From Myxococcota bacterium (lineage in GTDB: Bacteria > Myxococcota_A > UBA796 > GCA-2862545), in assembly GCA_039208735.1 (NCBI GenBank), contig JBCCQY010000206.1:1-13483 (forward strand): a DNA stretch of 13,483 nucleotides, written 5' to 3'. Of this stretch, positions 1 through 13,483 are shown one piece after another. Numbering within the stretch: the stretch's first letter is position 1; each line of letters starts with the position of its first letter. The position numbers and the translations under genes were made by a program. Below the pieces are notes generated by a model. That model made no database searches and was not told the DNA's origin. It was given only the letters and a program-made list of their open reading frames with translations.

Positions 1-161
1 CCGATGACTCGACCCGATAGCCGTTCACCCTTCTTCTCAGCTCGAACACCATTGGAAGGACATCATGTGCGGGCTGGTGGAAAGGTACCATGTACCCAGG
101 ATGAATCCTGCATGAACCCACTGGATTCCCCCGTATCGAAAAAGGGGGTAGGGTGGGTCTG

Positions 162-1814
162 ATGACCACAAGGAGCCATAGGACGCAGTCGTCGAAACCC
201 TCGCTGCTCGTGAGGGGAAGGCGGCTCGCCGACCACTGGACCATCGGCGCTCGGTGGGCAGTGTTCGACGATCTGCATCTGCACGCCGGCAGCTCCGAGA
301 TCGAAGTAGACATCGCGGCGTGGCGGTACCAGGGCAGTCAGCTGTTGCCCAAGTTTCTGGACGCTCTCGAAGCAGATCGTCAGCGATTCAGTGCGCTGGT
401 CCATCCACAGGTGTGCCGAACCTTCGACATCGGACGGGTACCGAGCGAGCTTACCTGCTACTGGGTGCAAGAGTCCCCTGGCGGCGTGTCGCTCCTGCAG
501 CACCTGCACGAACGCTCGGTGGTCGTGCCGGATCTGACCATCCACCTAGGCTTACAGATCGCCTTTGGTCTTGATGCGATTCATCGGGCGGGGCTGCTCC
601 ACGGCGACCTCGACCCCGAGTTCATTCGCGTGATCGGCAAAGACCGAATCAAGTTGGGTTGGGCCGGACTGGCAACCCGTGTCGAGTCCGCGGGGCTCGC
701 GACAGGGCGTGGTACCGCACGGTCGCTGGCCGAGATGGCGCCCGAGACCCTGGTGGACGGCATCGTAAGCGTCGCTTCGGACACCTACGGGTTTGCCGCA
801 CTGCTGTACCGTATGCTGGCCGGGACGTCGCCATTCCTTGTGCGGCGAGACGCTCCCCTGACAGCTCTCGACACCTCCGGGGCGCTGGCGCGCTTGCCCT
901 CTGAGGTGCCGCAAGTCCTATTTTCTTTGCTTGCCACGTCTCTCGAACTCGATCCCAGGAGGCGGCCGACCATTGAAGAGTGGGTCGAAGCCCTGCGCCA
1001 AGCGGAACGCGGGCTCATGCCAACATCGGGTCATTGGTTAACCGGAGCCCTACCTCGACGCGACACAGTGGCTCAGCCGGAATCGGAGTTTGTCGAAGAG
1101 GAGCGAGCTGCGATCGTTGCCCTTAAAGACATAGCCGAGGCGCTACGTTCGACGCCAGGCATGGAGATTCCACCCGTGCTCGAAGAGATGGTGGAGAACG
1201 GCGTCGTTCCAGCAACGTACCTACTACCGGCACCTAAGAACTGGAAATCTGAATCCCGTCGGGGCCTCACCCGCGTGAAATTCGAATTCTCTGGGCTTGA
1301 TCTTGCAGTGGATGAGCCGAGAGTTGTGGCTTCGCTTAGGGCCGCTCTTCCTTCGATCAACATTGCCGTGCTGACCCACGGTTCAATCAAGGGCACAGGG
1401 TACGTCAACAATGACGATACAGCTAGGATTGAACAAACGAAAGTGGACTGGGGTTCTGGGCCAGCCCCGGATGTGTTGACAGTAAACAAGCCCAAACCAC
1501 TCTACACAGCCGACGATGAGCCGTTCCTCGACGGGTCGTTATATCGTGCCCTCACACCGGTGTCACGACAACATGTCAGACTCGAGCTGGTTCTGCATCG
1601 CAACTTTGACGGCTACGAGGTTCGTCGTGCGTCTACGATTTTGATCGGCGAATCACCCAGTGAAAACCTCACACCGCGACAGATCGCTGGTTGGGTGGTC
1701 TTGGCCTGTCGAAGAAGAGGAATTCTGAAGGAACTCGCCCGTTGGGCCTCATTAGCCCGCCCCTTTACACGAGAGTTTCTGGCGGTCGAGTTTGATTCGT
1801 CGACTTTCGAATAG
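162..1814 (+). CDS. Ser/Thr (Hanks-type) kinase-fold protein, probably a pseudokinase, with a C-terminal region resembling TRADD-N and effector-associated (EAD/death-like) domains
   Basis: Kinase subdomains recognisable: LVHPQVCRTFDIG, YWVQE, GLDAIHRAGLLHGDLDPEFI, IKLGWAGLA, EMAPE, SDTYGFAALLYRMLAGTSPF, LDPRRRP. Catalytic motifs are degenerate. ATG at 162 follows a purine-rich tract; GTG at 153 is an alternative start. C-terminal domain calls are pattern-based inference. Confidence 0.8.
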   Translation: MTTRSHRTQSSKPSLLVRGRRLADHWTIGARWAVFDDLHLHAGSSEIEVDIAAWRYQGSQLLPKFLDALEADRQRFSALVHPQVCRTFDIGRVPSELTCYWVQESPGGVSLLQHLHERSVVVPDLTIHLGLQIAFGLDAIHRAGLLHGDLDPEFIRVIGKDRIKLGWAGLATRVESAGLATGRGTARSLAEMAPETLVDGIVSVASDTYGFAALLYRMLAGTSPFLVRRDAPLTALDTSGALARLPSEVPQVLFSLLATSLELDPRRRPTIEEWVEALRQAERGLMPTSGHWLTGALPRRDTVAQPESEFVEEERAAIVALKDIAEALRSTPGMEIPPVLEEMVENGVVPATYLLPAPKNWKSESRRGLTRVKFEFSGLDLAVDEPRVVASLRAALPSINIAVLTHGSIKGTGYVNNDDTARIEQTKVDWGSGPAPDVLTVNKPKPLYTADDEPFLDGSLYRALTPVSRQHVRLELVLHRNFDGYEVRRASTILIGESPSENLTPRQIAGWVVLACRRRGILKELARWASLARPFTREFLAVEFDSSTFE

Positions 1815-2313: not shown

Positions 2314-2605
2314 AGGTCGACGGTCGCAGTGCAACCACAATCCCCACTTCTTGGGGACGAGATCTTCCGCCATCCGGTGAGTTCAACTTGCGGATTAACT
2401 TTGCGTGAATTTCAGATGGAGCGCCAGTGCTAGTGTTCGGCAAGGACAACAACGAAGAGGAAGCTCGCAGCTGGACAAGCGGCATGAAGTGCCACTGCAC
2501 GTGCGCGCAACGGTGGAGTTCGAATGAGTATGGCGTTCTGGTCGGCCAAGATTTGCAAGTGGAAGCAACCTCACCACTCTCAAAATAGTCGGTATTGAAG
2601 GCCAA

Positions 2606-3946
2606 TTGTCTCAAGATCCAAATCGCGTCTTCATCAGCTATAGCCACGATAATGATGGTCATTCCAAGGCCGTGCTTGAGCTAGCTCAACAGCTACGCCG
2701 TGACGGTGTCAACGCTGTCATTGACAAGTTCCAGTCGCACCAGGAAGACTGGGTGGTGTGGATGAGGGATCAGGTGGAGGCCGCGCAGACCGTGCTCTGC
2801 GTGTGCTCGACCAACTGGCGCACTCGGTATGAGGGGAAAGCCGACGACGGGAACGACTTCGGCGTACGCATCGAGGGCGACCTCCTCAGAGATCGAATCG
2901 CACAGGCCAAGCGGGAACGTAGGCCACACGGCATCATTCCTGTAGGCATCGGAGAACGACCGCCCAACAACGTGGTTCCCGCACTGTTGCGCAACACCAC
3001 TTCTTATGGCCTTGCTCCAGGAAGCAGCGACTACCAGGCTCTCCTCGACTGGCTCCGGGGTGACGCTAGCGTGACCCCGGAGCCACTCGCCGAGGCACCC
3101 GTGCTCTCCCGCGGTGCTCGTGCGCCTATGGTGCAGGTTCTGGTCTTGCTGGACGCCCTACAGCCAGGCGACTTGGAGGGCGTCGAGGCACACATCACTC
3201 GGCCCGGCCTCGCACGGCACGTGCTGCGACTTACAGAGCACGGCTACCAACGGCCATCAGAGGACGCTCCTCGTGACGCCCTTGACTGGTCCATGCTGTC
3301 GACTGCCATCGATCAGTTGGCCAAGTCTCTTCACGCCCACCGCCTGGAGGCCACCGCACCCATCGAGGTTTACGTCAGTGGCCACGCGCCGCTCGGTGCG
3401 TTCTACGCCTTGGGCACTCGCCTCGACACGCGCACGATGTGGGTCACCCACCTGCAGGCGAACAAGCATTCGCCCGAGCGGTGGGATGTTCTCGATCTCA
3501 CCCCACGTCCCGGCGGTGAGCTTCCATTGGTCGCATCTGGCATCGAGGGTCGTGCCCGACGGGGCGCGGGCCAGCTCGCCGTCTACATCTCTCCCCTCCA
3601 GCAAGATGTCCCCGCCGAGCAGATCGAGGAAGCTCTCGGCGATGACGGACCTCCTCTGCTCGAGATCGTCAGTTTGGTCGCGCCTGGCCACGAGCGACTG
3701 GACATCGACCGACAAGGGATGCCTTCGATCAGCCACCAGTTGGGAGAGCTGTTCGAGCAGATCGAGCGAGTCTACCCGCGACGCCTCGGCATGTCGCTCT
3801 TCCTCCACTGTCCCGCCTTCGTGGCCCTTGCAGCCGGCTGGCTCACCATTCCCCACCACCATCTGGAAGGGGAGCGTACCATCGACTTGTTCGCCTACGT
3901 GGCCGGAACCTACCACCGCGTGCTTCGTTTGCCTCTTCGGCCGTGA
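2606..3946 (+). CDS. SEFIR/TIR-SAVED fusion; predicted cyclic-oligonucleotide-activated effector (putative NADase)
   Basis: N-terminal RVFISYSHD...VLELAQQLRRDGVNAVID...WVVWMRDQVEAAQTVLCVCS...GVRIEG is SEFIR/TIR-like, with E90 (nt 2873-2875) at the position of the TIR catalytic Glu. The C-terminal half has two SAVED-type motifs (VYVSGHAPLGAFYALG and LFLHCPAFVALAAG) and ends FAYVAGTYHRVLRL. TTG start preceded by GAAGG. Lies directly upstream of cas10. Confidence 0.85.
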   Translation: MSQDPNRVFISYSHDNDGHSKAVLELAQQLRRDGVNAVIDKFQSHQEDWVVWMRDQVEAAQTVLCVCSTNWRTRYEGKADDGNDFGVRIEGDLLRDRIAQAKRERRPHGIIPVGIGERPPNNVVPALLRNTTSYGLAPGSSDYQALLDWLRGDASVTPEPLAEAPVLSRGARAPMVQVLVLLDALQPGDLEGVEAHITRPGLARHVLRLTEHGYQRPSEDAPRDALDWSMLSTAIDQLAKSLHAHRLEATAPIEVYVSGHAPLGAFYALGTRLDTRTMWVTHLQANKHSPERWDVLDLTPRPGGELPLVASGIEGRARRGAGQLAVYISPLQQDVPAEQIEEALGDDGPPLLEIVSLVAPGHERLDIDRQGMPSISHQLGELFEQIERVYPRRLGMSLFLHCPAFVALAAGWLTIPHHHLEGERTIDLFAYVAGTYHRVLRLPLRP

Positions 3947-4006
3947 CCCTGACCAGCGCAACGGCGACACAAGCAACCCCACCACCTTCTTCCCGAGCTA
4001 CGTGCA

Positions 4007-5839
4007 GTGAGCACTCCTCACCTGATCTTGTGGACCTGTGGACCCGTCCAGAGCTTCATCGCAGCTGCCCGTAAGGGCCGCGATCTCTGGTTTGGATCTT
4101 GGCTGCTGTCCGAAGTCTCGACGGCAGCCGCCAACGCGTTTCTCGAGTCCGGCGCTCGACTGCTGCTTCCCGCGCCTCCCGAACCCGTGGTGGAGAACCT
4201 GGCGAGACTGGACTTCGACGTGCCCAATCGGGTGCTGGTCCAGGTGAGCACGGACAACCCGAGGGCACTCGCGGAGCACGTAAGTGAGAAGGCAAGCCAG
4301 CAGCTTCGGACGATGGCCACGAAGACCTTCGACACCCTCGAGGAGCAAGGACATCGCAACCAGTACGACCGTGAGGAGGCGATTCAGCAAATCGAGGATC
4401 TCCTCGACACCGCTTGGGCGTCCGTGCGTTGTACCGAACGACCTCAACGCGACCGGTCTCGAGTGGTCGCCTTGCTGGAGGCTCGACGTTCGGCGCGGCT
4501 GTTCACACCCCCGCTCTTCGCCCAACCGGGCGTGCCCAAGAGCTCGCTCGATGGAGCGCGCGAGGTCGTCACTCGCAAGGGCGCCGGGCTGAGACTGGGC
4601 CTTACTCACGACGAGCGCCTATGTGGTGTGGGTCTGCTCAAGCGGATGGGCCACCACATCGCGAAGGACGCCCCAGGCGGGCGGCTGGCTTCAGTATCGG
4701 CTTTTGCGCTGCACACGTGGTTGCGACCAGCGCTTGGTCCACATCAGGAACATCTCGAGGCAGTTGAGAATGCCGTCAAAGCCTTCGCTGACGAACTCAG
4801 GCGTAGCCAGTTCTTCACAAAGCTGGAACAGCCTCGAGCGTTTCCACTCCTCGGCCAGCTCGATGCTCACGCCTTCTACGCGAACCGCGTCCATGAGTTC
4901 GCGCAGGAGGACAAGCAAGAAAGGGACAAGCAAGACGAAGGTCCGCAACACAAAGACGGGCTGAACGATCTCCGAACGCACCACACCAGGGCGTTGAACA
5001 CCTTCCTCGACACTGTGGCCCGCGACACCAACGTGCGTCTTCCTCGGGTGCCCAACCCCTACTACGCCATTCTGTTGGGCGATGGCGACCAGCTCGGTCG
5101 CTACCTGAGACCCCTCGACCACCAAGAGTTGGCGCAGGTTTCTGGTGTGCTCTCAGCGTTCGCTGCCAGCGTGCGCGACGACGTGTTCCGTCCGGAACGC
5201 CTGGCCGGCGCCTGTGTCTACGCGGGTGGCGATGACGTGCTCGCACTCGTGCCCGTAGACGTAGCGCTTCAGCAGGCTCGAGCTCTGTCGGACCGCTTCG
5301 CGGCGGCGTTCGAGGAGCTTGGCGAGAGTCTGCTGGCGCGTCACGGCGTGCCCACGTTCTCCGTAGGCATTTGTGTTGCCCACCACCTCACTCCCCTCCG
5401 TGATGCCCTTGCTGGGGCACGCGCCGCCGAGGCAACCGCCAAGGAGATTGCCGGCCGCTGTGCATGGGCCGTGCGTGTCAACAAACGCAGTGGTGCACCC
5501 ATCACCATCCACGGGCCCTGGACGGATGACAGCGACCGCGCGCTCATCCGGCTCACCACCCTGTCAGCCGCAGGAGGCGATGTTCCACGCGGACTTGCCC
5601 ATGAGCTGGTGGAGGTCGCGAGACGCCTTGGCGTTGCCACCGAGGTGCTGGAGCGTTGTGAGCTGATTCGGGTACTCGCCCAGAAGGGTGACGCCGTCCA
5701 GCAGCACCGCGACTTCTTTCTCGGCGAGCTTGAACGAGCGCGGTCGCACCATGGCAACCACACAAGCGGCTTGGCGAACCTCGCGGAACGGTTGGTCGTC
5801 GCCCGCGCGCTTGCTGGCCTCGGAGGCGCCGCAGCATGA
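4007..5839 (+). CDS. cas10: Type III-B Cas10/Cmr2 large subunit lacking the HD nuclease domain, cyclase motifs intact
   Basis: Starts directly with GPVQSFIAAARKGRDLWFGSWLLS (Cmr2 Palm1 signature). Has YYAILLGDGDQLG (DGD at 5081-5089) and VYAGGDDVLAL (GGDD at 5225-5236), then FSVGICVAHHLTPL and KRSG. Only 610 aa with no N-terminal HD domain. Confidence 0.95.
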   Translation: MSTPHLILWTCGPVQSFIAAARKGRDLWFGSWLLSEVSTAAANAFLESGARLLLPAPPEPVVENLARLDFDVPNRVLVQVSTDNPRALAEHVSEKASQQLRTMATKTFDTLEEQGHRNQYDREEAIQQIEDLLDTAWASVRCTERPQRDRSRVVALLEARRSARLFTPPLFAQPGVPKSSLDGAREVVTRKGAGLRLGLTHDERLCGVGLLKRMGHHIAKDAPGGRLASVSAFALHTWLRPALGPHQEHLEAVENAVKAFADELRRSQFFTKLEQPRAFPLLGQLDAHAFYANRVHEFAQEDKQERDKQDEGPQHKDGLNDLRTHHTRALNTFLDTVARDTNVRLPRVPNPYYAILLGDGDQLGRYLRPLDHQELAQVSGVLSAFAASVRDDVFRPERLAGACVYAGGDDVLALVPVDVALQQARALSDRFAAAFEELGESLLARHGVPTFSVGICVAHHLTPLRDALAGARAAEATAKEIAGRCAWAVRVNKRSGAPITIHGPWTDDSDRALIRLTTLSAAGGDVPRGLAHELVEVARRLGVATEVLERCELIRVLAQKGDAVQQHRDFFLGELERARSHHGNHTSGLANLAERLVVARALAGLGGAAA

Positions 5840-7035
5840 CCGGATTCCTTATTCACCCCCTCGATCCTTTGGTATTCGGTAGCGGCCGCCCATTCACTTC
5901 CGTGCCAGGCAGCCGGGTGACCTCCCGCTCCCTGCCGCCTCCGAGCACACTCGCTGGAGCTGTGCGAACAGAGGCCGGTCGAGACGCCAATGGACGCTTC
6001 GACATCTCCCAGATCGAGACTCTTCTGGCCGAAGCAGTATACGGTCCACTGCTGGCAGTGGACGCAGACTCACCCGAGCTCGCGCTCCCGTCGCCGGCCG
6101 ATGCCATTCGGCTGCGCGGTGATGTCTCCGAAGAGCACCTGCTAAGGAGACGCGTTCCCCTCGAGCTAAGCGACGGGGACTATGTCTCCACCCACCACCT
6201 CGCACCCGTTGGAAGCGTGATCACGGACGACAGGAAGGAGGTCAAGAGTCCGCCTGCATTCTGGACCCAGCGCGATCTGTTGAGCTGGCTCGTGGACCCT
6301 CCACCCCCTGTGGAGACGCGTCCACTCTCCGAGCATTGGGGCATCAGCGGCCCCGATGCCGAGGTCCGAATCCACGTGCGCGTAGACCGCCGCTCGAATC
6401 TCGCTGATGAAGGCGGTCTGTTCTCCACCGAAGGCCGACGGTTCGTAGGTCGGCGACACGGTGAGCTCGTGGCGCTCGCCATGTACGGCGAGACCACAGC
6501 GGATCTGCCGTTGCCGAGCCACGCCGTCATCGGAGGCGAGGGTCGACTCTCTCGTCTTGCGTCGTGTGACCGTCTCGTCCCAGAGATCCCAAAGGTCATC
6601 GTCGACTCGGCGCGGAACGGGTTTGTACGTGCTTACCTCGCAACCCCGCTGCCGCTGGAAGACGGCACCTGGCAACCCACGGGTGTCGCGCGGATCGTCG
6701 GTCAGGCTCACGGTCCGCCGGTCGTGATCAGTGGATGGTCCATGGCGCCGCTAACAAGGACGTTCGGGTACGAGGCGGCTCGCAACTCAACTGCAAGAAG
6801 CGAGTCACCAGATCGCCCCCAGGGTGGTCCCAAACCGGTGCGTCGGTTGTTCCCCGCCGGCTCCGTGTTCTTCCTCGAACTGTCCGGAAGCGAGGACGCC
6901 CGAGAGAGCTTTGTCCGTGACCGTTGGGGGGCCTCGCTCCTAGAGGGCCAGGACGCACGAGACGGATTCGGCCTGACCCTGTTTGGCACCTGGAGCGGCA
7001 ACTGCCATCCCCTCGCGCTCGAGGATTCACCATGA
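5836..7035 (+). CDS. cmr3: Type III-B Cmr3 (Cas5-family RAMP)
   Basis: IHPLDPLVFGSGRPF, PPPSTLAGAVRT, GLFSTEGRRF, IGGEGRLS, YLATP, ISGW, PKPVRRLFPAGSVFF, DGFG. ATGA overlap with the cas10 stop. Confidence 0.93.
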   Translation: MTGFLIHPLDPLVFGSGRPFTSVPGSRVTSRSLPPPSTLAGAVRTEAGRDANGRFDISQIETLLAEAVYGPLLAVDADSPELALPSPADAIRLRGDVSEEHLLRRRVPLELSDGDYVSTHHLAPVGSVITDDRKEVKSPPAFWTQRDLLSWLVDPPPPVETRPLSEHWGISGPDAEVRIHVRVDRRSNLADEGGLFSTEGRRFVGRRHGELVALAMYGETTADLPLPSHAVIGGEGRLSRLASCDRLVPEIPKVIVDSARNGFVRAYLATPLPLEDGTWQPTGVARIVGQAHGPPVVISGWSMAPLTRTFGYEAARNSTARSESPDRPQGGPKPVRRLFPAGSVFFLELSGSEDARESFVRDRWGASLLEGQDARDGFGLTLFGTWSGNCHPLALEDSP

Positions 7036-7874
7036 GTACTACCCGTATGCTTCTGTTGCATGCTGTCACTCCGCTCCACGTCGGTACCGGCCGGGGTGAA
7101 GGTGTGATTGATCTGCCGATTGCCCGTGACCAAGTCACCCGGCACCCCCTTTTGCCTGGCTCCGGCCTCAAAGGGCCGATGCGGGCCGCGGCGAGCGAAG
7201 GGGATCGGATCGAGGTGTTCGGTCCTGAGCACAACAACATCACACACGCGAGTGCGGTGCGTTTCAGCGACGCGCGTCTCGTGGCCATGCCCTGCCCGAG
7301 CGACCATGGGACATTCGCCTGGGTGACTTCGCCCATGATCTTGGCCCGCTGGCGCCGCGACTTTGCCCACCTCATCGACTTTCCGTCCACGCCTCCCGAG
7401 ATCACCTCGGAGCAGTGCGCCTGTGCACCTGACGCGGCAATCATCGGTGATGGAAACGTGGTCCTCGACGGTGAACGCTATGAGGCGCTGGCACTTGATT
7501 CTTGGCCCCAGTGGTTTGCCGAGTTGATTTTCCCCGGCGACCTCGTTTGGCAGAACATGATGGCCAATCGCCTAGCCATCTTGCACGATGACGCGTTCGA
7601 TGCCCTGGCTCGGCACGGCACAGACGTGCGGGCCCATATCCGCATCGACCCTACCACCGGCACCGTGCACGACGGGGCCCTCTGGTACGAGGAGGCTGTT
7701 CCCGCAGAGGCTATCTTCGCTGGTGTAGTGCAGTTCATCGGTAGTCGTAGAGCCGGCCCCGCTGAGGCCTTGAAGGTGATCGAGGGGCTGCTTGAAGGGC
7801 CGCTCACACTCGGTGGCAGCAAGACATCGGGCATGGGCATCGTTCGGGGACGCCTCGCGGGAGGTGGGGCGTGA
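7032..7874 (+). CDS. cmr4: Type III-B Cmr4 (Cas7-family backbone RNase), copy a, canonical
   Basis: TPLHVGTG...IDLPIARD (H16, D27), PGSGLKG, FSDARLVAMP, FAWVTSP, IRIDPTTGTVHDGALWYEEAVP, LGGSKTSGMG. ATG at 7032 with GAGGA RBS and ATGA overlap with cmr3; the ORF track start at 6924 is too early. Confidence 0.95.
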   Translation: MSTTRMLLLHAVTPLHVGTGRGEGVIDLPIARDQVTRHPLLPGSGLKGPMRAAASEGDRIEVFGPEHNNITHASAVRFSDARLVAMPCPSDHGTFAWVTSPMILARWRRDFAHLIDFPSTPPEITSEQCACAPDAAIIGDGNVVLDGERYEALALDSWPQWFAELIFPGDLVWQNMMANRLAILHDDAFDALARHGTDVRAHIRIDPTTGTVHDGALWYEEAVPAEAIFAGVVQFIGSRRAGPAEALKVIEGLLEGPLTLGGSKTSGMGIVRGRLAGGGA

Positions 7875-8245
7875 GCTCAAACGAGCGGGCGCGAGCCCAA
7901 CAAGCCTACGAACGCGTTTCGGCACGCGCGGCCCTGGGTGGCAAGGCCTGGCGACAGTACCGCAGCATTGCCCTCAAGCTTCCGGTGATGGTTCACAACG
8001 AGGGTCTTCTGCCAGCGCTGCACTTCGTTGCTGCGCGCGGCGACGCAAACCAGAAGTTGATTCTCGACGACCTGGCTCTGGCCCTAGAGCAGGAGAACCA
8101 AGCCAGCATGCTGTGCTGGATGCGATCCCTCGAGGGCGATGCGCTTAGAAACGGCACCCTTGAAGTTCAGCGACGGCTCGGTTGGTACAAACGGCTGGTG
8201 CAGGCCTTCGGCAAGGAGCCTGTGGATCCTGGGGTAGTGCCATGA
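7871..8245 (+). CDS. cmr5: Type III-B Cmr5 (Cas11 small subunit), copy a
   Basis: 124 aa helical protein with RAQQAYERV, YRSIALKLPVMVHNEGLLPALHF and LGWYKRL. GTGA overlap with cmr4a. Confidence 0.9.
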   Translation: MSSNERARAQQAYERVSARAALGGKAWRQYRSIALKLPVMVHNEGLLPALHFVAARGDANQKLILDDLALALEQENQASMLCWMRSLEGDALRNGTLEVQRRLGWYKRLVQAFGKEPVDPGVVP

Positions 8246-9420
8246 TGCGCAAGGTCACTATCGACGCTGTGACGGAATTGCCTCCCAGCTCGCTGACCCC
8301 TGCATCGCTAGCTCGAGACATCGATCTACGCGCGGTCACACCAGTCTACCTAGGCTCTGCCCGCCCAGCAGGAATCGACAAGGATTATCCCTTTCGGGGC
8401 CCATCCCTGCGGGGAAACCTACGCACTTGGTGGCGCGCGGTGCACCCGACGCAGGACCTGAGCGAGCTGCGCAACGCCGAGCGTGCGCTGTTCGGCGGGA
8501 TTCACGACGAACAGGGCCAAGGCGCTCCACGTGCGAGCCGGGTCTCACTGGGACTTGCACGCATGTCCTCCAGAGTGAGCACCCGAAAGCAGCTCAACGA
8601 GCACCTCGATACCGACCTTCCCTACGCTCTATGGGTGGATAGAGCAGGAACCGAGACACGGTACCATCTGCAAGCCCGTGCCAGGCTGCAGCTCACGCTC
8701 CGCCCACGCGCTGAGGACGAGTTGCCGGCCGACGCGGCGCCTCTTCTCGAACGTGCCTTGAAGGCGATGGTACTCCTCGGGGGCGCAGGTAGCCGTACTC
8801 GCCGAGGCCTGGGACGACTATGGTCCGACGAGCTCCTAGGACCCACGGTCGCCAACGCAGAATCCCTAGCGGAAATGCTCTCGGAGCTCGCGCCCACGAG
8901 TGCCCCTCGCGGTTGGCCTTCCTTAGCGGGGATGACCGTTGCATGGAAGTCTGGCTCGACCTACGGCAACGCCGCGCTCGCGGCTCAGGCCGCCCTGGAG
9001 GTTCTCCAGCTGCTGCGCGGAATGCGGCCCGATGGCGATCGCTTCGACGGGAGTGAGCGGCTCGAGGAGGCCGAACAAGACTGGTTTCACATCAATCACG
9101 GGATGCCCCTGCACCAAGCATTTGCCGCGGCCCTCGGTATGCCCTTGGCCTATCGCAAACCAGGAGTTCTCGTTGCGAGAGTCGTTCCACACGGCCACGA
9201 GACGGATCGTCTCCCAAGCCCCCTGCACGTGCGCCCCGTTCCGACACCAAATGGCTGGGCCGCCGTAATCCTCTGCCTTCAGCCCTGGTACACTGGCGCG
9301 ATCTCCTCATCGCACCGACCGCATGAGAAAGGGAGCCTCAATCCTTGCGCGGTCAACATCATGGTCGCGGGGCTTGCCCGTGAGGGCTGGCTGACCGTGC
9401 CGGTGGTGGGTGCGATGTGA
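8242..9420 (+). CDS. cmr1: Type III-B Cmr1 (RAMP)
   Basis: LRAVTPVYLG, FRGPSLRGNLRTWWRA, ERALFGG, LLGGAGSRTRRGLG, ALGMP, DRLPSPL. ATGA overlap with cmr5a; the ORF track start at 8182 is too early. Confidence 0.92.
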   Translation: MMRKVTIDAVTELPPSSLTPASLARDIDLRAVTPVYLGSARPAGIDKDYPFRGPSLRGNLRTWWRAVHPTQDLSELRNAERALFGGIHDEQGQGAPRASRVSLGLARMSSRVSTRKQLNEHLDTDLPYALWVDRAGTETRYHLQARARLQLTLRPRAEDELPADAAPLLERALKAMVLLGGAGSRTRRGLGRLWSDELLGPTVANAESLAEMLSELAPTSAPRGWPSLAGMTVAWKSGSTYGNAALAAQAALEVLQLLRGMRPDGDRFDGSERLEEAEQDWFHINHGMPLHQAFAAALGMPLAYRKPGVLVARVVPHGHETDRLPSPLHVRPVPTPNGWAAVILCLQPWYTGAISSSHRPHEKGSLNPCAVNIMVAGLAREGWLTVPVVGAM

Positions 9421-10232
9421 CCCTGAAGATCCTCCAGGCAGTGACCAGTCTTCGGGTCGGGGATGGTACGGCCGTTGGCGCAGTCGACCTACCGCTGGCC
9501 CGAGAGCGACACACTCGATGGCCGTTCGTGCCCGGTAGCTCCTTGCGAGGAGCCTTGCGGGGTCGAGCCACTGCCCTCGGTCATGGTGTCGATGAGGTCG
9601 AGGCGGTGTTCGGGAGCACCCCGCCCGAACCCGGTGTCGTGGGAGACGACCTACGCATGGGCACCCTCCGGGTGGGCCAAGCTACGCTGCTGGCACTCCC
9701 CGTGCGCTCCTTGACCCGCACGTTTCTGTTGCTCACCTGTCCCACCGCCCTCGCTCGATTGCGTCGCGCCGCGGGCTTTGAGCTCGAGGTGCCCAATCCG
9801 GATGTTCACCAAGTTTGCGGGGCTAATGACCGCCCGAACCATCTCGAGGAAGCGGGCATCGTTTACGTCGAGGATCTCGACCTTGAGGCCGTTCACGACC
9901 CCACGGTCGCCGCATGGGCACAGAGGCTCCGGGCCCACGGAGGCGACGAGCTGGCGGTCGAACGACTGGTCGTGGTGCACGATGATGTGTTTGCCCATGC
10001 GTGCACCGCATGGACCGAGCTGCGAACGCGGAACCGAATTGAGCCCAGCACCGGGGTCGTGCGAAAAGGCCAGCTGTTCGATGTCGAGTTCCTGCCTAGT
10101 GAAACGCTGATGTGGGTGCCACTAGAGGGCTCCGGCGCCGATTTGCTGCCCGCTAATGGGGAGACCTTCGGGCTCGGTGGTCACCAGTCGGTAGGTGCTG
10201 GGCGTGTTGTCTGGTCAGGAGGTCCATCGTGA
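9417..10232 (+). CDS. cmr4: Second Cmr4 paralogue (copy b), divergent
   Basis: AVTSLRVGDG...VDLPLARERHTRWPFVPGSSLRGALR, LLALPVRS, LLTCP, VVHDDVF, RNRIEPSTGVVRKGQLFDVEFLPSET, LGGHQSVGAG. GTGA overlap with cmr1. Confidence 0.92.
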   Translation: MTLKILQAVTSLRVGDGTAVGAVDLPLARERHTRWPFVPGSSLRGALRGRATALGHGVDEVEAVFGSTPPEPGVVGDDLRMGTLRVGQATLLALPVRSLTRTFLLLTCPTALARLRRAAGFELEVPNPDVHQVCGANDRPNHLEEAGIVYVEDLDLEAVHDPTVAAWAQRLRAHGGDELAVERLVVVHDDVFAHACTAWTELRTRNRIEPSTGVVRKGQLFDVEFLPSETLMWVPLEGSGADLLPANGETFGLGGHQSVGAGRVVWSGGPS

Positions 10233-10573
10233 GCGTACTCTCGCAGGCCTTCGAGATCCGAAGCCAGGTGGCGAAGCACGAGAAAGCGGATCCGGAGCAA
10301 CTCAAGGAACTCCTTCGGCGACTCCCAGCAGCGGTTCGTCGAATGGGGCTGGTTCGATGCCTGGAGTGGCTGGACGTGGGAAAAAAGAAGTCTGCGACCG
10401 GCAGGATCCTCCAGGCCAAGCTGGCCATCCACCTTGGATTGCCGGTCAACCCACGAGCAGCCGCCAGCCAACTGGAAGAGGGGTCGCGGCTGGAGTTGTT
10501 CCGCTGTCATCGCCAGGCTGTGGCGCTGTTCGATGCCCTCGCTACAGCTCAGCGGGTGGTGGAGAACTCATGA
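10229..10573 (+). CDS. cmr5: Second Cmr5/Cas11 paralogue (copy b), divergent
   Basis: 114 aa. LLRRLPAAVRRMGLVRCLEWL aligns with IALKLPVMVHNEGLLPALHFV of Cmr5a. Follows cmr4b exactly as cmr5a follows cmr4a. GGAGG RBS and 4-nt overlaps at both ends. Confidence 0.75.
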   Translation: MSVLSQAFEIRSQVAKHEKADPEQLKELLRRLPAAVRRMGLVRCLEWLDVGKKKSATGRILQAKLAIHLGLPVNPRAAASQLEEGSRLELFRCHRQAVALFDALATAQRVVENS

Positions 10574-11760
10574 AGCGCGACAGTCTTACTCGCAGGGTTC
10601 GCGGGTTGGCCGACGATACCAGCCGCTCGCCAGTGGCTCACGTGGGATTGGCCTACGAAAAACTGGCTCCTCACCGTTCTGCACTCGATCCAGACGCAAA
10701 GTCTCGATTCGTTCGCCAGCTGGCTGACTTCAGCGAGATGCCGGAAGGCTATTCGACCCTGTTCAACAGGTGGGTCCGACGTACGCTTGACGACCACAAC
10801 GGCCTCTTCGGGCGCCGAACTCGCATTGCCGTGAGTCAGGGGCGGGTCCTTTGCGGGCTCGGTTTACTGACACCCAGCGAGAACGGCCTCGCGATCCACG
10901 CCACTTATGGCGTCCCCTACTTGCCAGGCTCGTCGCTCAAGGGCATTGCCCGCGCCTGGCTTGTCGAGCAAGTCACCACAGGGCCGTGGGCGACGGGCGG
11001 CGCCCTGTTCCGCGAGATTTTTGGTTGGCAGGCTGGAGGGGAAGAGGACCGGGAGCAGGATCCTGGCCTCAGTGGCGCGGTATCCTTCCTCGATGCCCTC
11101 TGGACGCCGCCTGACGAGCACCTAACTCAGCTCCCCAAGCACCCCTGGGCAGCTGAGATCGTCACGCCCCACCACGGGAAGTACTTCGCCGGTCATGGTG
11201 GACCAGACGGAACGGAGAGCCCGGTCCCCAGTACATTCTTGGCCGCTCAGGGCGGATTCCGAGTGGTGATCGAAGGCCCTCAAGAGATGCTCGGCCCGAC
11301 GATGGATGTGCTCGAGCGGGCACTCGCGGAGCGCGGGGTCGGAGCCAAGGGGCGGGCCGGCTACGGACGGTTCGTGTTTCTGGACGAGATGACCGGTGTA
11401 GAACGCGACATCGAGGAGCAACGGCAGGCGGCGGCGCGTCGCGAAACTGCAGAATCTAGGGTGACCGAGGCGAAAGACGTGGTCGAAGCTCTTGAAGAGC
11501 TGGCTCTACTCGTTGGTAAGGACGGCCTGGCCGCCGAACTCCAGGCTTGGCTCACCGGCGACAGTCCCCACAGGCTAATCTCCCACTTCCCAGTGACCCC
11601 TGAAGCAGCGGCGAACGCATGGACGTGGGCCAAAGGCAGACATCTCAAGATCTTGCGGCGAAGAATCAAAAAACGCGTCGCACCTGAGATCATGGCAGCA
11701 ATCGATAAGGTATCTGAAGCCTTGGATTTACGGAAAAAAAGCAGGCGTAGGAAAACTTGA
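10570..11760 (+). CDS. cmr6: Type III-B Cmr6 (RAMP) with about 128-aa C-terminal extension
   Basis: GRVLCGLG...SENGLAIHATYGVPYLPGSSLKGIARAW, GAVSFLDA, EIVTPHHGKYF, ESPVPSTFL, GVGAKGRAGYGRF. ATG at 10570 with GGAG RBS and ATGA overlap; the ORF track start at 10195 is too early. Confidence 0.93.
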   Translation: MKRDSLTRRVRGLADDTSRSPVAHVGLAYEKLAPHRSALDPDAKSRFVRQLADFSEMPEGYSTLFNRWVRRTLDDHNGLFGRRTRIAVSQGRVLCGLGLLTPSENGLAIHATYGVPYLPGSSLKGIARAWLVEQVTTGPWATGGALFREIFGWQAGGEEDREQDPGLSGAVSFLDALWTPPDEHLTQLPKHPWAAEIVTPHHGKYFAGHGGPDGTESPVPSTFLAAQGGFRVVIEGPQEMLGPTMDVLERALAERGVGAKGRAGYGRFVFLDEMTGVERDIEEQRQAAARRETAESRVTEAKDVVEALEELALLVGKDGLAAELQAWLTGDSPHRLISHFPVTPEAAANAWTWAKGRHLKILRRRIKKRVAPEIMAAIDKVSEALDLRKKSRRRKT

Positions 11761-12666
11761 ATGGAGCGTTCGCGGCACTGGATGGAACAGCTGCATGCCA
11801 CGGAACTGGTCGCCACGTACCGTCCGAGGCGGTCTTGGGAGCTGACCTGGAGCCCTGGCGCAACACTGCGCAGTGCGTTGCTGCGTGAGCTGACTCTGGC
11901 CTTGTGTCCGAGAAGGCCGGGGGGTACTTGCACCTGCCCACAGAAGGCTCTCTGCACAATCGAGCAGTGGTGGCGTGGTGGCACGAGCAAGGTGCCGATG
12001 CCCTGGTGGCTCACGGTAGAGCCGGGAGCTGGGTGCCGGGTGGGGCCTGACCAGCCACTGCGCCTCACACTACGTGCGCTTGGACCGATTCCTCAAGCCC
12101 CGGCTCTGGTGGCAGCACTGCAGCGGATGGGGTCGTCTGGCCTCGGGAAGGCTCGCACCCCACACGACCTGGAGCAACTGTGGGTTCGGGGGGCAGGAAC
12201 GCCTCGGGCCGTTGTCCGCGAGGGTAGACGCGTGGGGCAGATGCCAGCGCCCGGCCGTCTCGCCGATCTGGTGAGGTCCCCAACCACTCAGCCAAAACGA
12301 GCCACGATCTACCTACGATCTCCCTTTGCGAGCCAGTCCAGGCCAACCGTCGCATTGTGGTTGTCGAAGGCAACAGGCAGAGTTCGAGGGCTGGCGCGAC
12401 GCCTCGGACAACGGCTGCCCGTGTGGTGGCCAAGACCCGACGACATCGACGGATACGTTCAGGTGAGGTGGCACAAAGCAAGCCGTCGCCCTCGTAGCCA
12501 GCCGGGTCGCCAGAGCTTGTCTGGGTGGCTCGGTCGAATAGTGTTCGAAGGGCCGTGCCTCGAGGACTACACCGAGCTGATTTCAACGGCAGCGTTCTTG
12601 CAGGTGGGACCAGGAGTGACCTACGGATTGGGAAGCGTGGCGGTTCGCTGGGACGAACCCTACTAA
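11761..12666 (+). CDS. cas6: Cas6 pre-crRNA endoribonuclease with N-terminal Cys cluster
   Basis: PGATLRSAL, CPRRPGGTCTCPQKALC, PMPWWL, GLGKAR, IYLRSP, SLSGWLGRIVFEG and the C-terminal glycine loop QVGPGVTYGLG. Located between the Cmr operon and the array. Confidence 0.85.
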   Translation: MERSRHWMEQLHATELVATYRPRRSWELTWSPGATLRSALLRELTLALCPRRPGGTCTCPQKALCTIEQWWRGGTSKVPMPWWLTVEPGAGCRVGPDQPLRLTLRALGPIPQAPALVAALQRMGSSGLGKARTPHDLEQLWVRGAGTPRAVVREGRRVGQMPAPGRLADLVRSPTTQPKRATIYLRSPFASQSRPTVALWLSKATGRVRGLARRLGQRLPVWWPRPDDIDGYVQVRWHKASRRPRSQPGRQSLSGWLGRIVFEGPCLEDYTELISTAAFLQVGPGVTYGLGSVAVRWDEPY

Positions 12667-12839: not shown

Positions 12840-13483
12840 GTTCCAATGCGCTCCATGACGCGCAGGCGTCGGTGACCTCGTCTCGATCGCGTCGGAAGAC
12901 GGCCTCGAGGTTGTTTCAATGCGCTCCATTACGCGCAAGGGTCTGCGACCTCTCGTGGGACTGCCGGTAGTAGTGGCCATCATCTGTTTCAATGCGCTCC
13001 ATTACGCGCAAGGGTCTGCGACATGCCTACAGCTCTCAGCTGTTCGGCCATTGGGTGTGTTTCAATGCGCTCCATCACGCGCAGGGGTCTGCAACGACTG
13101 CAGAAGCAAGCACTGGGCCTGGCCGCCATGCTCGGTTTCAATGCGCTCCATCACGCGCACGGGCCTGCGACTTGCCGAGCGAGGTGGCTCGTGACGTCCG
13201 CCGCCAAGTTTCAATGCGCTCCATTACGCGCATGGGCCTGCGACCGCTCGCCAACTACCTGCGACGCCTCGGATTCTGGTTTCAATGCGCCCCATCACGC
13301 GCATAGGCCTGCAACCCGGAGAATGCGAAGTGCTTCCTTCGGGAAGGCTTCTGTTTCAATGCGCTCCATTACGCGCATAGGCCTGCAACGGCAAAAAAGT
13401 GCTGGACGTCGCACGACATCGACTGGTCGTTTCAATGCGCTCCATCACGCGCACGGGCCTGCGACGGGATGGAACCGCTCAAG
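12840..13483 (-). CRISPR. CRISPR array, 37-nt repeats, truncated by the window end
   Basis: Repeats (+ strand e.g. GTTTCAATGCGCTCCATTACGCGCAAGGGTCTGCGAC) start at 12913, 12986, 13059, 13135, 13208, 13279, 13353 and 13429, plus a degenerate copy at 12840-12876 (6 mismatches to the 12913 copy). Spacers are 36, 36, 36, 39, 36, 34, 37 and 39 nt, with a partial one at 13466-13483. The minus-strand repeat ends ATTGAAAC (8-nt crRNA 5' tag) after a GCGC/GCGC hairpin. Decay at the left end marks the trailer. Confidence 0.97.

What the first reader, a model, noticed from the sequence alone, without database searches (positions are those of the whole stretch)
7032..10573. Type III-B complex with two diverged Cmr4-Cmr5 modules in one coupled operon
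Seen: cmr4a-cmr5a (7032-8245) and cmr4b-cmr5b (9417-10573) are intact, highly diverged from each other, and joined to their neighbours by ATGA/GTGA overlaps. This argues for maintained expression rather than a recent duplication or assembly error. Known: canonical Cmr complexes build the backbone from multiple copies of one Cmr4 and one Cmr5. Inference: the backbone is heteromeric with position-specific subunits (e.g. pair a near Cas10/Cmr3, pair b near Cmr1/Cmr6), or two alternative complexes form with different crRNA length or cleavage and signalling kinetics.
Basis: partly seen in the sequence, partly recalled or inferred. Interest (0 to 1): 0.85.

Follow-up and report, generated by a model that had tools for sequence, protein, structure and literature searches.

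The report
CRISPR III-B with split backbone subunits
This bacterial RNA-targeting CRISPR operon, and relatives in several other uncultured bacteria, carries two anciently diverged sets of the genes for its repeating backbone, and these likely build one complex in which the first set cuts the target RNA while the second is predicted to sit once at the far end with weakened cutting.

Summary
Confirmed. The window holds an intact, 4-nt-overlapped operon: cas10-cmr3-cmr4a-cmr5a-cmr1-cmr4b-cmr5b-cmr6, then cas6 and an array. Cmr4a and Cmr4b are 32% identical; Cmr5b has the Cmr5 fold (TM 0.73). The full order recurs in seven other genomes (7 of 182 in the host class carry Cmr4b, all with cmr4a upstream). 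Cmr4a and Cmr4b form separate 100%-supported clades, and dN/dS is equally low (0.14-0.19 vs 0.16, one sub-lineage). Labour looks divided: the slicer Asp is in 39/39 Cmr4a but 52/66 Cmr4b (kept in this window), and Cmr5b lacks the W-x-K/R motif (0/10, against W in 33/33 canonical). Natural Cmr4b-Cmr5b and Cmr5b-Cmr6 fusions suggest a single b pair beside Cmr6. Best reading: one heteromeric complex, a-module cutting, b-module a distal adaptor with weakened slicing. No description surfaced in ten literature searches; heteromeric Cas7 backbones are known in type III-D. This scan noted duplicated cmr4-cmr5 twice before on other DNA, with no sequence look-alike. New variant of III-B; interest 0.62.

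The parts
2606..3946 (+). SEFIR/TIR-SAVED protein, likely cOA-activated effector of the system (start codon uncertain)
   Evidence: Pfam SEFIR E 7e-16, TIR_2 E 1.7e-11, SAVED E 1.5e-5; NCBIfam SAVED 32.7 bits vs cut-off 33; ends 60 nt upstream of cas10
4007..5839 (+). cas10/cmr2 without HD domain, with intact palm motifs (GDGD at residue 358, GGDD at residue 407)
   Evidence: TIGR02577 153.8 bits vs cut-off 79.4; motifs
5836..7035 (+). cmr3 (Cas5)
   Evidence: Pfam Cas_Cmr3 E 8.8e-52
7032..7874 (+). cmr4a: keeps H16, slicer D27 (codon 7110), D80, W218, E220; has lost the Pf R95 and E151 equivalents (P89, D146)
7871..8245 (+). cmr5a: canonical-type small subunit with N-terminal R8 and W105-Y-K107-R motif
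8242..9420 (+). cmr1
   Evidence: PADLOC Cmr1 E 8.9e-14; TIGR01894 E 1.2e-5, below cut-off
9417..10232 (+). cmr4b: separate clade; keeps slicer D24 (codon 9486) here but has R13 (Pf H15), Q88 (Pf D86), F221 (Pf W225), V223 (Pf E227)
10229..10573 (+). cmr5b: diverged Cmr5-fold small subunit lacking the W-x-K/R motif and the conserved Tyr
10570..11760 (+). cmr6
   Evidence: TIGR01898 81.7 bits vs cut-off 51.1
11761..12666 (+). cas6
   Evidence: PADLOC Cas6 E 1.8e-26
12840..13465 (-). CRISPR array: nine 37-nt repeats with variable ends and 34-39-nt spacers, running to the contig end; minus orientation is inferred from the repeat end

Best explanation
The operon encodes two conserved, diverged Cmr4-Cmr5 pairs that likely assemble into one type III-B complex, in which Cmr4a/Cmr5a would form the cutting backbone next to Cas10-Cmr3 and a single Cmr4b/Cmr5b pair would form the last backbone segment against Cmr6-Cmr1, with weakened or absent target cleavage there. 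Shown: two maintained paralog pairs, fixed gene order, asymmetric loss of conserved residues, and two fusions in relatives. Inferred: co-assembly; the order Cmr3-(Cmr4a)n-Cmr4b-Cmr6; one copy of the b pair; a skipped or slow cut at the crRNA 3' (seed) end. Also inferred: with no HD domain on Cas10, immunity would run through cOA and here the SEFIR-SAVED protein, and fewer cuts would likely slow target release and lengthen signalling.
For: (1) Conservation. The full order occurs in 8 genomes including this one (window, L017, L018=L026, L019, L027, L029, L101, L103); L102 runs to the start of cmr5b at its contig end; L028, L030, L031 and L119 are compatible fragments. Of 182 class genomes, 27 have a Cmr4 match and 7 have Cmr4b, all 7 with cmr4a 2.3-2.4 kb upstream. 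(2) Clades. Cmr4a and Cmr4b are each one clade apart from single-copy Cmr4: 100 SH in a 272-row FastTree; 100/98 and 100/100 in a 42-row IQ-TREE. Patristic distances of paired a and b correlate: Mantel rho 0.48, p 0.02 for 8 pairs shown on one locus; 0.63 with 9 more pairs inferred from equal contig lengths. (3) Selection. dN/dS is 0.14-0.19 for cmr4b (3 pairs) vs 0.16 for cmr4a (1 pair), and 0.23-0.35 for cmr5b vs 0.30 for cmr5a; mean identity over 8 loci is 0.464 vs 0.468. (4) Catalysis. The Pf D26 column is D in 39/39 Cmr4a, 168/171 other Cmr4 and 52/66 Cmr4b, needing at least 11 changes on the tree. It is D in 12 of 19 full-length 50%-cluster representatives of Cmr4b (read). Pf H15 is H in 39/39 a and 35/66 b. 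In Cmr5, the motif W is present in 33/33 canonical, 10/10 a and 0/10 b, and K/R in 31/33, 10/10 and 0/10. Cmr5 Lys/Arg and a Cmr4 Trp hold the target at the scissile phosphate in Cmr-beta (10.1101/2020.06.24.163345, passages). (5) Position. P0026 is a Cmr4b-Cmr5b fusion (Cmr5b profile E 6.5e-17 at residues 325-416), and L103:8492-9925 is one ORF joining Cmr5b to Cmr6. (6) Interface. On the two faces defined in PMC4333402 section 15, Cmr4a has lost R95 (7/39 vs 58/58 b, 170/171 others) and K276 on one face, while Cmr4b has lost D86 (22/58 vs 39/39 a, 167/171) and changed helix alpha6 on the opposite face. None of 12 control sub-clades lost the R95, E151, D86, H15 or D26 columns. (7) Precedent. 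S. solfataricus III-D uses ordered Cas7 paralogs, one of which skips its cut despite a plausible Asp (PMC9945777, passages).
Against: No structure, pull-down or expression data. The window's own Cmr4b keeps the Asp, as do 52/66 of the family. H15 and E227 mutations had no apparent effect in P. furiosus (PMC4333402). One 9-row control clade of other Cmr4s also lost the W225 and E227 columns, and control clades lost 0-19 columns, so the number of losses is not unusual. The non-overlap of a-lost (4) and b-lost (10) columns among 56 is expected by chance (P 0.44). Cmr4b keeps the central contacts of both faces (R112 58/58, R115 56/58, H34 51/58, D233 as E/D 52/58), so b-b stacking is not excluded. 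Predicted Shine-Dalgarno pairing is weaker for cmr4a than cmr4b (mean -6.1 vs -11.5 kcal/mol), the opposite of a high-copy a. Raw pairwise identities of a and b do not correlate (rho -0.11). Each fusion is a single record. dN/dS comes from one sub-lineage (L027/L028/L029/L031), not the window's. L029 has a frameshifted cmr4b (and cmr3). G506 gave one match only, Cmr4b, on a contig that starts inside cmr1. Which face points to Cmr6, and the match of the W-x-K/R lysine to Sis Cmr5 K145, are my inference.
Confidence: 0.55

Rival explanations
1. One heteromeric complex with a different stoichiometry. Cmr4a is a single subunit against Cmr3 and Cmr4b fills the remaining position(s), or every subunit is single-copy in a short fixed complex. 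Cmr5a then partners a Cmr4b site that still cuts, and Cmr5b only covers the Cmr6 end.
For: Cmr4a lost K276 while keeping D86 (39/39), which argues against a-a stacking. Cmr4b lost both partners of that salt bridge and keeps the other contacts of both faces. The Asp is kept in 52/66 Cmr4b. Predicted SD pairing is stronger for cmr4b. T. thermophilus complexes with only two Cmr4 exist (PMC8376896, passages).
Against: The Cmr4b-Cmr5b fusion and the Cmr5b-Cmr6 fusion together imply one Cmr4b. Solved complexes follow Cmr4(n+1):Cmr5(n), which two Cmr4 plus two Cmr5 would break. R95 kept in b would face R/A at the E201 position of another b.
Confidence: 0.23
2. Two alternative homomeric complexes share Cas10, Cmr3, Cmr1 and Cmr6. 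An a-complex cuts and turns over; a b-complex cuts poorly and signals longer or uses another crRNA length.
For: Both Cmr4s are full-length folds and keep the central self-contact residues. A different locus, L120, duplicates the whole cmr4-cmr5-cmr6-cmr1 block, so alternative complexes are plausible elsewhere.
Against: Neither module was seen alone: 9 of 9 cmr4b loci whose contig reaches upstream carry cmr4a, and the only context-known members of the a clade come from these loci or the compatible fragment L119. A Cmr5b-Cmr6 fusion cannot supply a multi-copy Cmr5 filament. A fully non-cutting Cmr4 could not be made in P. furiosus with intact effectors (PMC7192623, passages).
Confidence: 0.13
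3. The b pair is a slowly decaying duplicate, or a free decoy or regulator (for example an anti-CRISPR sink), and is not a stable subunit.
For: Repeated loss of the catalytic Asp, faster divergence of Cmr5b (mean identity 0.325 vs 0.437), and one frameshifted cmr4b (L029).
Against: dN/dS 0.14-0.19; 30 invariant columns in 49 Cmr4b sequences; 19 full-length clusters at 50% identity; crRNA-binding K46 in 57/58; fusions to core subunits.
Confidence: 0.07

Closest known systems
Canonical type III-B Cmr complexes (P. furiosus, A. fulgidus/P. furiosus chimera 3X1L, T. thermophilus, S. islandicus Cmr-beta)
   Same: Same six subunit families, a Cas10 with GGDD, Cmr4 slicer Asp in register with Pf D26, and Cmr5 fold. 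The HD-less Cas10 resembles T. thermophilus Cmr (PMC8376896). The nearest single-copy loci have the order cas10-cmr3-cmr1-cmr4-cmr5-cmr6 (e.g. L034, L040, L107).
   Different: Canonical complexes use 2-4 copies of one Cmr4 and 1-3 copies of one Cmr5. Here each is encoded twice as old, separately conserved families, with an extra pair between cmr3 and cmr1, relaxed catalytic residues in Cmr4b, and a Cmr5b without the W-x-K/R motif.
Saccharolobus solfataricus type III-D (SsoCsm, PDB 8BMW)
   Same: Backbone of ordered, non-interchangeable Cas7 paralogs, with one position not cleaving (PMC9945777, passages). This is what the present system likely works like.
   Different: SsoCsm has five cas7-like genes but one cas11. 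Here both Cas7 and Cas11 are split, the subunits are Cmr-family rather than Csm3-family, and no III-D signature gene was hit.
Type III-D2/Dv, III-E (Cas7-11) and III-I effectors
   Same: Each backbone position has its own Cas7 domain and domains are fused (PMC12669027, passages). The Cmr4b-Cmr5b and Cmr5b-Cmr6 fusions echo this trend.
   Different: Those systems derive from III-D and are largely single polypeptides. This one keeps separate Cmr genes and a full Cas10.
Myxobacterial III-B loci (PMC11237760)
   Same: III-B loci, a few with cmr1 placed after cmr3 (passages).
   Different: The survey describes one cmr4 and one cmr5 per locus; no duplicated pair appears in the passages read.

Membership tests
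CRISPR subtype III-B | Cas10/Cmr2 large subunit with palm (GGDD) motif | tested here: met
   TIGR02577 above cut-off; GGDD at residue 407; GGDD in 9 of 9 variant Cas10s
CRISPR subtype III-B | cmr1, cmr3 and cmr6 present | tested here: met
   (Cmr1 and Cmr3 fall below NCBIfam cut-offs but hit PADLOC/Pfam: Cmr1 E 8.9e-14, Cmr3 E 8.8e-52)
CRISPR subtype III-B | Cmr4 (Cas7) with catalytic Asp equivalent to Pf D26 | tested here: met
   D27 in Cmr4a and D24 in Cmr4b of the window; lost in 14 of 66 Cmr4b family rows
CRISPR subtype III-B | Cmr5 (Cas11) small subunit | tested here: met
   Cmr5a Pfam E 3.6e-16; Cmr5b Foldseek to 2ZOP, TM 0.73
CRISPR subtype III-B | crRNA-guided target RNA cleavage at 6-nt intervals and target-activated second-messenger synthesis | not testable with these tools
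   needs biochemistry
Canonical Cmr architecture (homopolymeric backbone) | One cmr4 and one cmr5 gene whose products repeat along the crRNA | tested here: not met
   two of each, in separate clades
CRISPR subtype III-D | Csm3-like Cas7 paralogs with csx10/csx19 signature genes (definition recalled) | tested here: not met
   best hits of all RAMPs are Cmr1/4/6 models; no Csx10 or Csx19 hit among the 11 ORFs scanned
CRISPR subtype III-D | Ordered heteromeric Cas7 backbone in a single complex | not testable with these tools
CRISPR subtype III-C | Cmr-like subunits with inactivated Cas10 cyclase (definition recalled) | tested here: not met
   GDGD and GGDD intact

The most novel reading that the evidence does not exclude
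A type III-B lineage caught turning its repeating backbone into position-specific subunits. A dedicated, largely non-cutting Cmr4b/Cmr5b segment at the crRNA 3' seed end acts as an obligatory adaptor to Cmr6, and so as a built-in timer that slows target release and prolongs Cas10 signalling. This would be a Cmr-based parallel to the path that led from III-D to single-chain Cas7-11, complete with first fusions.
Probability: 0.3. Interest if true: 0.8.

Novelty: new variant of a known kind. Interest (0 to 1): 0.62.

Why it matters
Type III-B backbones are described as homopolymers whose length varies from complex to complex. A conserved family with split Cas7 and split Cas11 gives a natural way to test open questions: what each backbone position does for seed recognition, crRNA length, cutting and switching off Cas10. 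It would also show sub-functionalisation of a homo-oligomer into a heteromer in a simple operon, with single-copy relatives as outgroup. Because each position would have its own gene, single cleavage sites could be mutated independently, which canonical Cmr does not allow. That is useful for mechanism and for tuning cOA-based RNA detection.

Tried and rejected
Assembly artefact or recent duplication: rejected. The modules share no DNA match over 23 nt, GC3 is similar in all five genes checked (0.69-0.72), and the order recurs in other genomes. Contigs of run X1, which may be the source and is therefore not independent, span 5836-10608 and 10581-11760. Run X2, from another study, has near-identical pieces in cmr4a, cmr5a and cmr4b but none bridges the modules. 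Expression: no RNA holder listed. Complex prediction (Cmr4a + Cmr6 1-275 + Cmr5b + Cmr4b) was not available, so nothing was folded and the order of subunits stays open. Foldseek of the Cmr4b model and VIA-align of the Cmr5b model were not obtained. Origin of b: a and b are not sisters in the best tree, but the AU test does not reject a+b monophyly (p 0.103), so in-situ duplication versus capture is unresolved. A link to one effector: rejected. Neighbours vary: SEFIR-SAVED in the window, Cas02710/Csm6-like in L028, L029 and L101, APE2256-family CARF in L027, L029 and L103, none evident in L017, L018, L019 or L102 within the stretches read. Statistical complementarity of lost residues: not significant (P 0.44). 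SD strength does not support a high-copy Cmr4a. Search for further Cmr5b fusions among longer proteins: none at E <= 1 among 8000 candidates, weak evidence since the known fusions were not recovered. Viral contigs: 6 pattern matches, 0 relatives. Plasmids: 36 records, all under 60% identity and each with one place; the 10 listed are ordinary Cmr4 at 36-40%. ESM Atlas: no usable hit for Cmr5b. Cluster look-up of 10 Cmr4b proteins gave no organism names. Wider taxonomic samples found Cmr4b only in 3 class members among 401 phylum genomes, 1 of 401 around G506 and 1 of 301 around G505; these are samples of incomplete genomes. Literature: searches listed no description of this layout. One search was swamped by unrelated cardiology papers (20 of 353 seen), and most subscription journals are not covered.


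Full report
OBSERVATION. The window is contig C206 of a 9.4-Mb draft genome. It carries, on the + strand, a SEFIR-SAVED gene (2606-3946), cas10 (4007-5839), cmr3, cmr4a (7032-7874), cmr5a (7871-8245), cmr1, cmr4b (9417-10232), cmr5b (10229-10573), cmr6, cas6 and a nine-repeat CRISPR array. All seven junctions from cas10 to cmr6 are 4-nt ATGA or GTGA overlaps. Both Cmr4s exceed the curated Cmr4 cut-off and are 32% identical. Cmr5b is missed by Pfam and NCBIfam. It is a Cmr5 by fold (model pLDDT 90.7; Foldseek best hit T. thermophilus Cmr5, prob 1.00, TM 0.73) and by profile (E 0.0099 to 2ZOP; E down to 4e-7 against canonical Cmr5 from fetched loci). The genome has no other Cmr4. Cas10 lacks an HD motif and keeps GDGD and GGDD.

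IT IS A FAMILY. A search with Cmr4b gave 51 proteins at 42-100% identity before a drop to ordinary Cmr4. A profile search of 1.84 billion representatives gave 19 full-length clusters at 287 bits or more, then a gap to 214 bits, among 1280 hits at E <= 1e-30. In the host's class, 27 of 182 genomes have a Cmr4 match and 7 have Cmr4b, each with cmr4a 2.3-2.4 kb upstream. The complete eight-gene order is present in the window, L017, L018 (=L026), L019, L027, L029, L101 and L103. L102 ends at the start of cmr5b, and L028, L030, L031 and L119 are compatible fragments. The cmr4-cmr5 4-nt overlap is kept in every module that could be read. Record titles name a Thermoanaerobaculia, a Polyangiaceae, a delta-proteobacterial and an 'Enterobacterales' MAG, the last being the same contig as G055 from the host's own order; all four named records are metagenome-assembled. 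Outside the host class the variant is sparse. Against this: L029 has frameshifts in cmr4b and cmr3, and G506 shows only Cmr4b, on a contig beginning inside cmr1.

BOTH COPIES ARE MAINTAINED. Cmr4a (40 rows) and Cmr4b (61 rows) each form one clade excluding all 36 single-copy loci in a 272-row FastTree; IQ-TREE on 42 rows gives 100/98 and 100/100. Whether a and b are sisters is open (AU p 0.103). In the one sub-lineage close enough to measure, dN/dS is 0.14-0.19 for cmr4b, 0.16 for cmr4a, 0.23-0.35 for cmr5b and 0.30 for cmr5a; across 8 loci Cmr4b is as conserved as Cmr4a (0.464 vs 0.468) while Cmr5b is the fastest gene (0.325).

ASYMMETRY IN CATALYSIS. P. furiosus numbering was transferred through the alignment with 4WNZ. 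D26 is the slicer residue (PMC4333402, passages and section 15; PMC5965380, passages). It is D in 39 of 39 Cmr4a, 168 of 171 other Cmr4 and 48 of 58 Cmr4b. With 8 added representatives it is D in 52 of 66, replaced by N, S, H, K or G, needing at least 11 changes on the tree (Fisher p 0.002 against Cmr4a, which overstates because rows are related). H15 is H in 35 of 66 and R in 29; W225 is F in 55 of 58 and E227 is V in 47 of 58. Cmr5b has lost the C-terminal W-x-K/R motif (W: 33/33 canonical, 10/10 a, 0/10 b; K/R: 31/33, 10/10, 0/10) and a conserved Tyr. In Cmr-beta, Cmr5 K145 and R35 and Cmr4 W227 hold the target beside the scissile phosphate (10.1101/2020.06.24.163345, passages). The motif lysine is K144 in the A. 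fulgidus chain; its equivalence to Sis K145 is my inference. Cautions: the window's Cmr4b keeps D24; H15 and E227 mutants had no apparent effect in P. furiosus; and a control clade of other Cmr4s also lost the W225 and E227 columns.

POSITION. Protein P0026 is Cmr4b joined by a linker to Cmr5b, and L103:8492-9925 is a single ORF of Cmr5b followed by Cmr6. As Cmr6 is single-copy in solved complexes, these two single records together suggest one Cmr4b/Cmr5b pair beside Cmr6. Interface residues point the same way. On the face formed by the beta3-beta4 and beta10-beta11 loops, Cmr4a has lost R95 (7/39 vs 58/58 b and 170/171 others) and K276 and gained an Asp at the L97 position (38/39 vs none among the listed residues of b or others). 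On the opposite face Cmr4b has lost D86 (22/58 vs 39/39 and 167/171) and changed helix alpha6 (L199 to A in 58/58). The E151 column is also lost only in a (1/39 vs 58/58 and 168/171). This fits an a-to-b contact that co-evolved, running from Cmr3 towards Cmr6 if the first face is the thumb side, which I infer from RRM topology. None of 12 control sub-clades lost the R95, E151, D86, H15 or D26 columns, but they lost 0-19 other columns, and the non-overlap of a and b losses is not significant (P 0.44). K276 is lost in both copies, Cmr4b keeps the central contacts of both faces, and SD strength favours cmr4b, so copy numbers are not settled.

MECHANISM. Most likely (0.55): Cas6-processed crRNA nucleates Cas10-Cmr3; Cmr4a with Cmr5a builds the proximal, cutting backbone; one Cmr4b/Cmr5b pair closes it against Cmr6-Cmr1. 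That position coincides with the 3' seed, where Cmr5 must move to admit the target in T. thermophilus (PMC8376896, passages), and with the site whose product was most abundant in Cmr-beta. Target cleavage switches Cas10 off (PMC7192623 and PMC9945777, passages), so a weak distal site would likely slow release and extend cOA output to the SEFIR-SAVED effector. Effectors differ among variant loci, so the backbone is not tied to one. Rivals: a different stoichiometry with an active b site (0.23), two alternative complexes (0.13), a decaying or decoy copy (0.07).

COMPARISON AND NOVELTY. It is a member of subtype III-B by gene content but fails the canonical one-cmr4, one-cmr5 architecture. It likely works like the S. 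solfataricus III-D complex, whose ordered Cas7 paralogs include one that skips its cut, but that complex has one Cas11 and Csm3-type subunits. The 2025 classification (PMC12669027; passages, supplementary files 1 and 3 searched, file 2 unreadable, its external data files not seen), the myxobacterial survey (PMC11237760, passages) and the rare-systems survey (PMC10910872, passages) do not mention it in the parts seen. Ten searches (listings only for papers not named above) surfaced no description. Supplements of these surveys and subscription papers could still list such loci. Two earlier notes of this scan report duplicated cmr4-cmr5 in other genomes, one archaeal with a Cmr4-Cmr5 fusion. Sequence look-ups with both window Cmr4s found no look-alike and I did not check those loci, so they may be independent origins; L120 shows yet another duplication layout. 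Verdict: real, conserved, new variant of a known kind; interest 0.62.

Noticed in passing
window 2606-3946: SEFIR/TIR-SAVED fusion directly upstream of cas10, the likely cOA-activated effector. A SAVED-domain homolog lies by the single-copy III-B locus L023, and a second SEFIR-like hit is on genome contig C238.
   Followed up: partly
window 12840-13465; genome contigs C104, C111, C120: The CRISPR repeats are unusually heterogeneous in their last third, varying in blocks along the array. Arrays of the same repeat family occur on three other contigs.
   Followed up: partly
window 13172-13207 (spacer) vs G000:C111:2882-2900 and 2073-2089: One spacer has 19-nt and 17-nt perfect partial matches to two nearby places on another contig of the same genome (E 6.7e-4 and 0.011).
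   Followed up: no
window 153-1814 and 1851-2252: A Ser/Thr kinase-like gene with an unannotated C-terminal half, and an IS66 transposase remnant, lie upstream of the effector.
   Followed up: no
L120 (G1054:C399) 2431-9265, minus strand: A different duplication: cmr3 followed by two tandem cmr4-cmr5-cmr6-cmr1 blocks, neither with a Cmr4b-type protein (cmr5 assigned by position and appearance only).
   Followed up: partly
L106, L112, L117 (single cmr4 genes): Three single-copy Cmr4 proteins carry Asn in place of the catalytic Asp, suggesting III-B systems that may not cut target RNA at all.
   Followed up: no
L029 687-1109, 2970-4071, 6420-7224, 11993-17148: Variant locus with frameshifts in cmr3 and cmr4b (real or assembly error), an extra RAMP fragment upstream of cas10, and an array of at least 72 repeats.
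   Followed up: no
L027 12795-14399: ORF with a Cas6-like domain followed by a reverse transcriptase domain, downstream of the variant operon.
   Followed up: no
L103 2636-4309: This Cas10 has GGDD, but the first palm Asp motif was not matched by the pattern that found it in the other 8 variant Cas10s.
   Followed up: no
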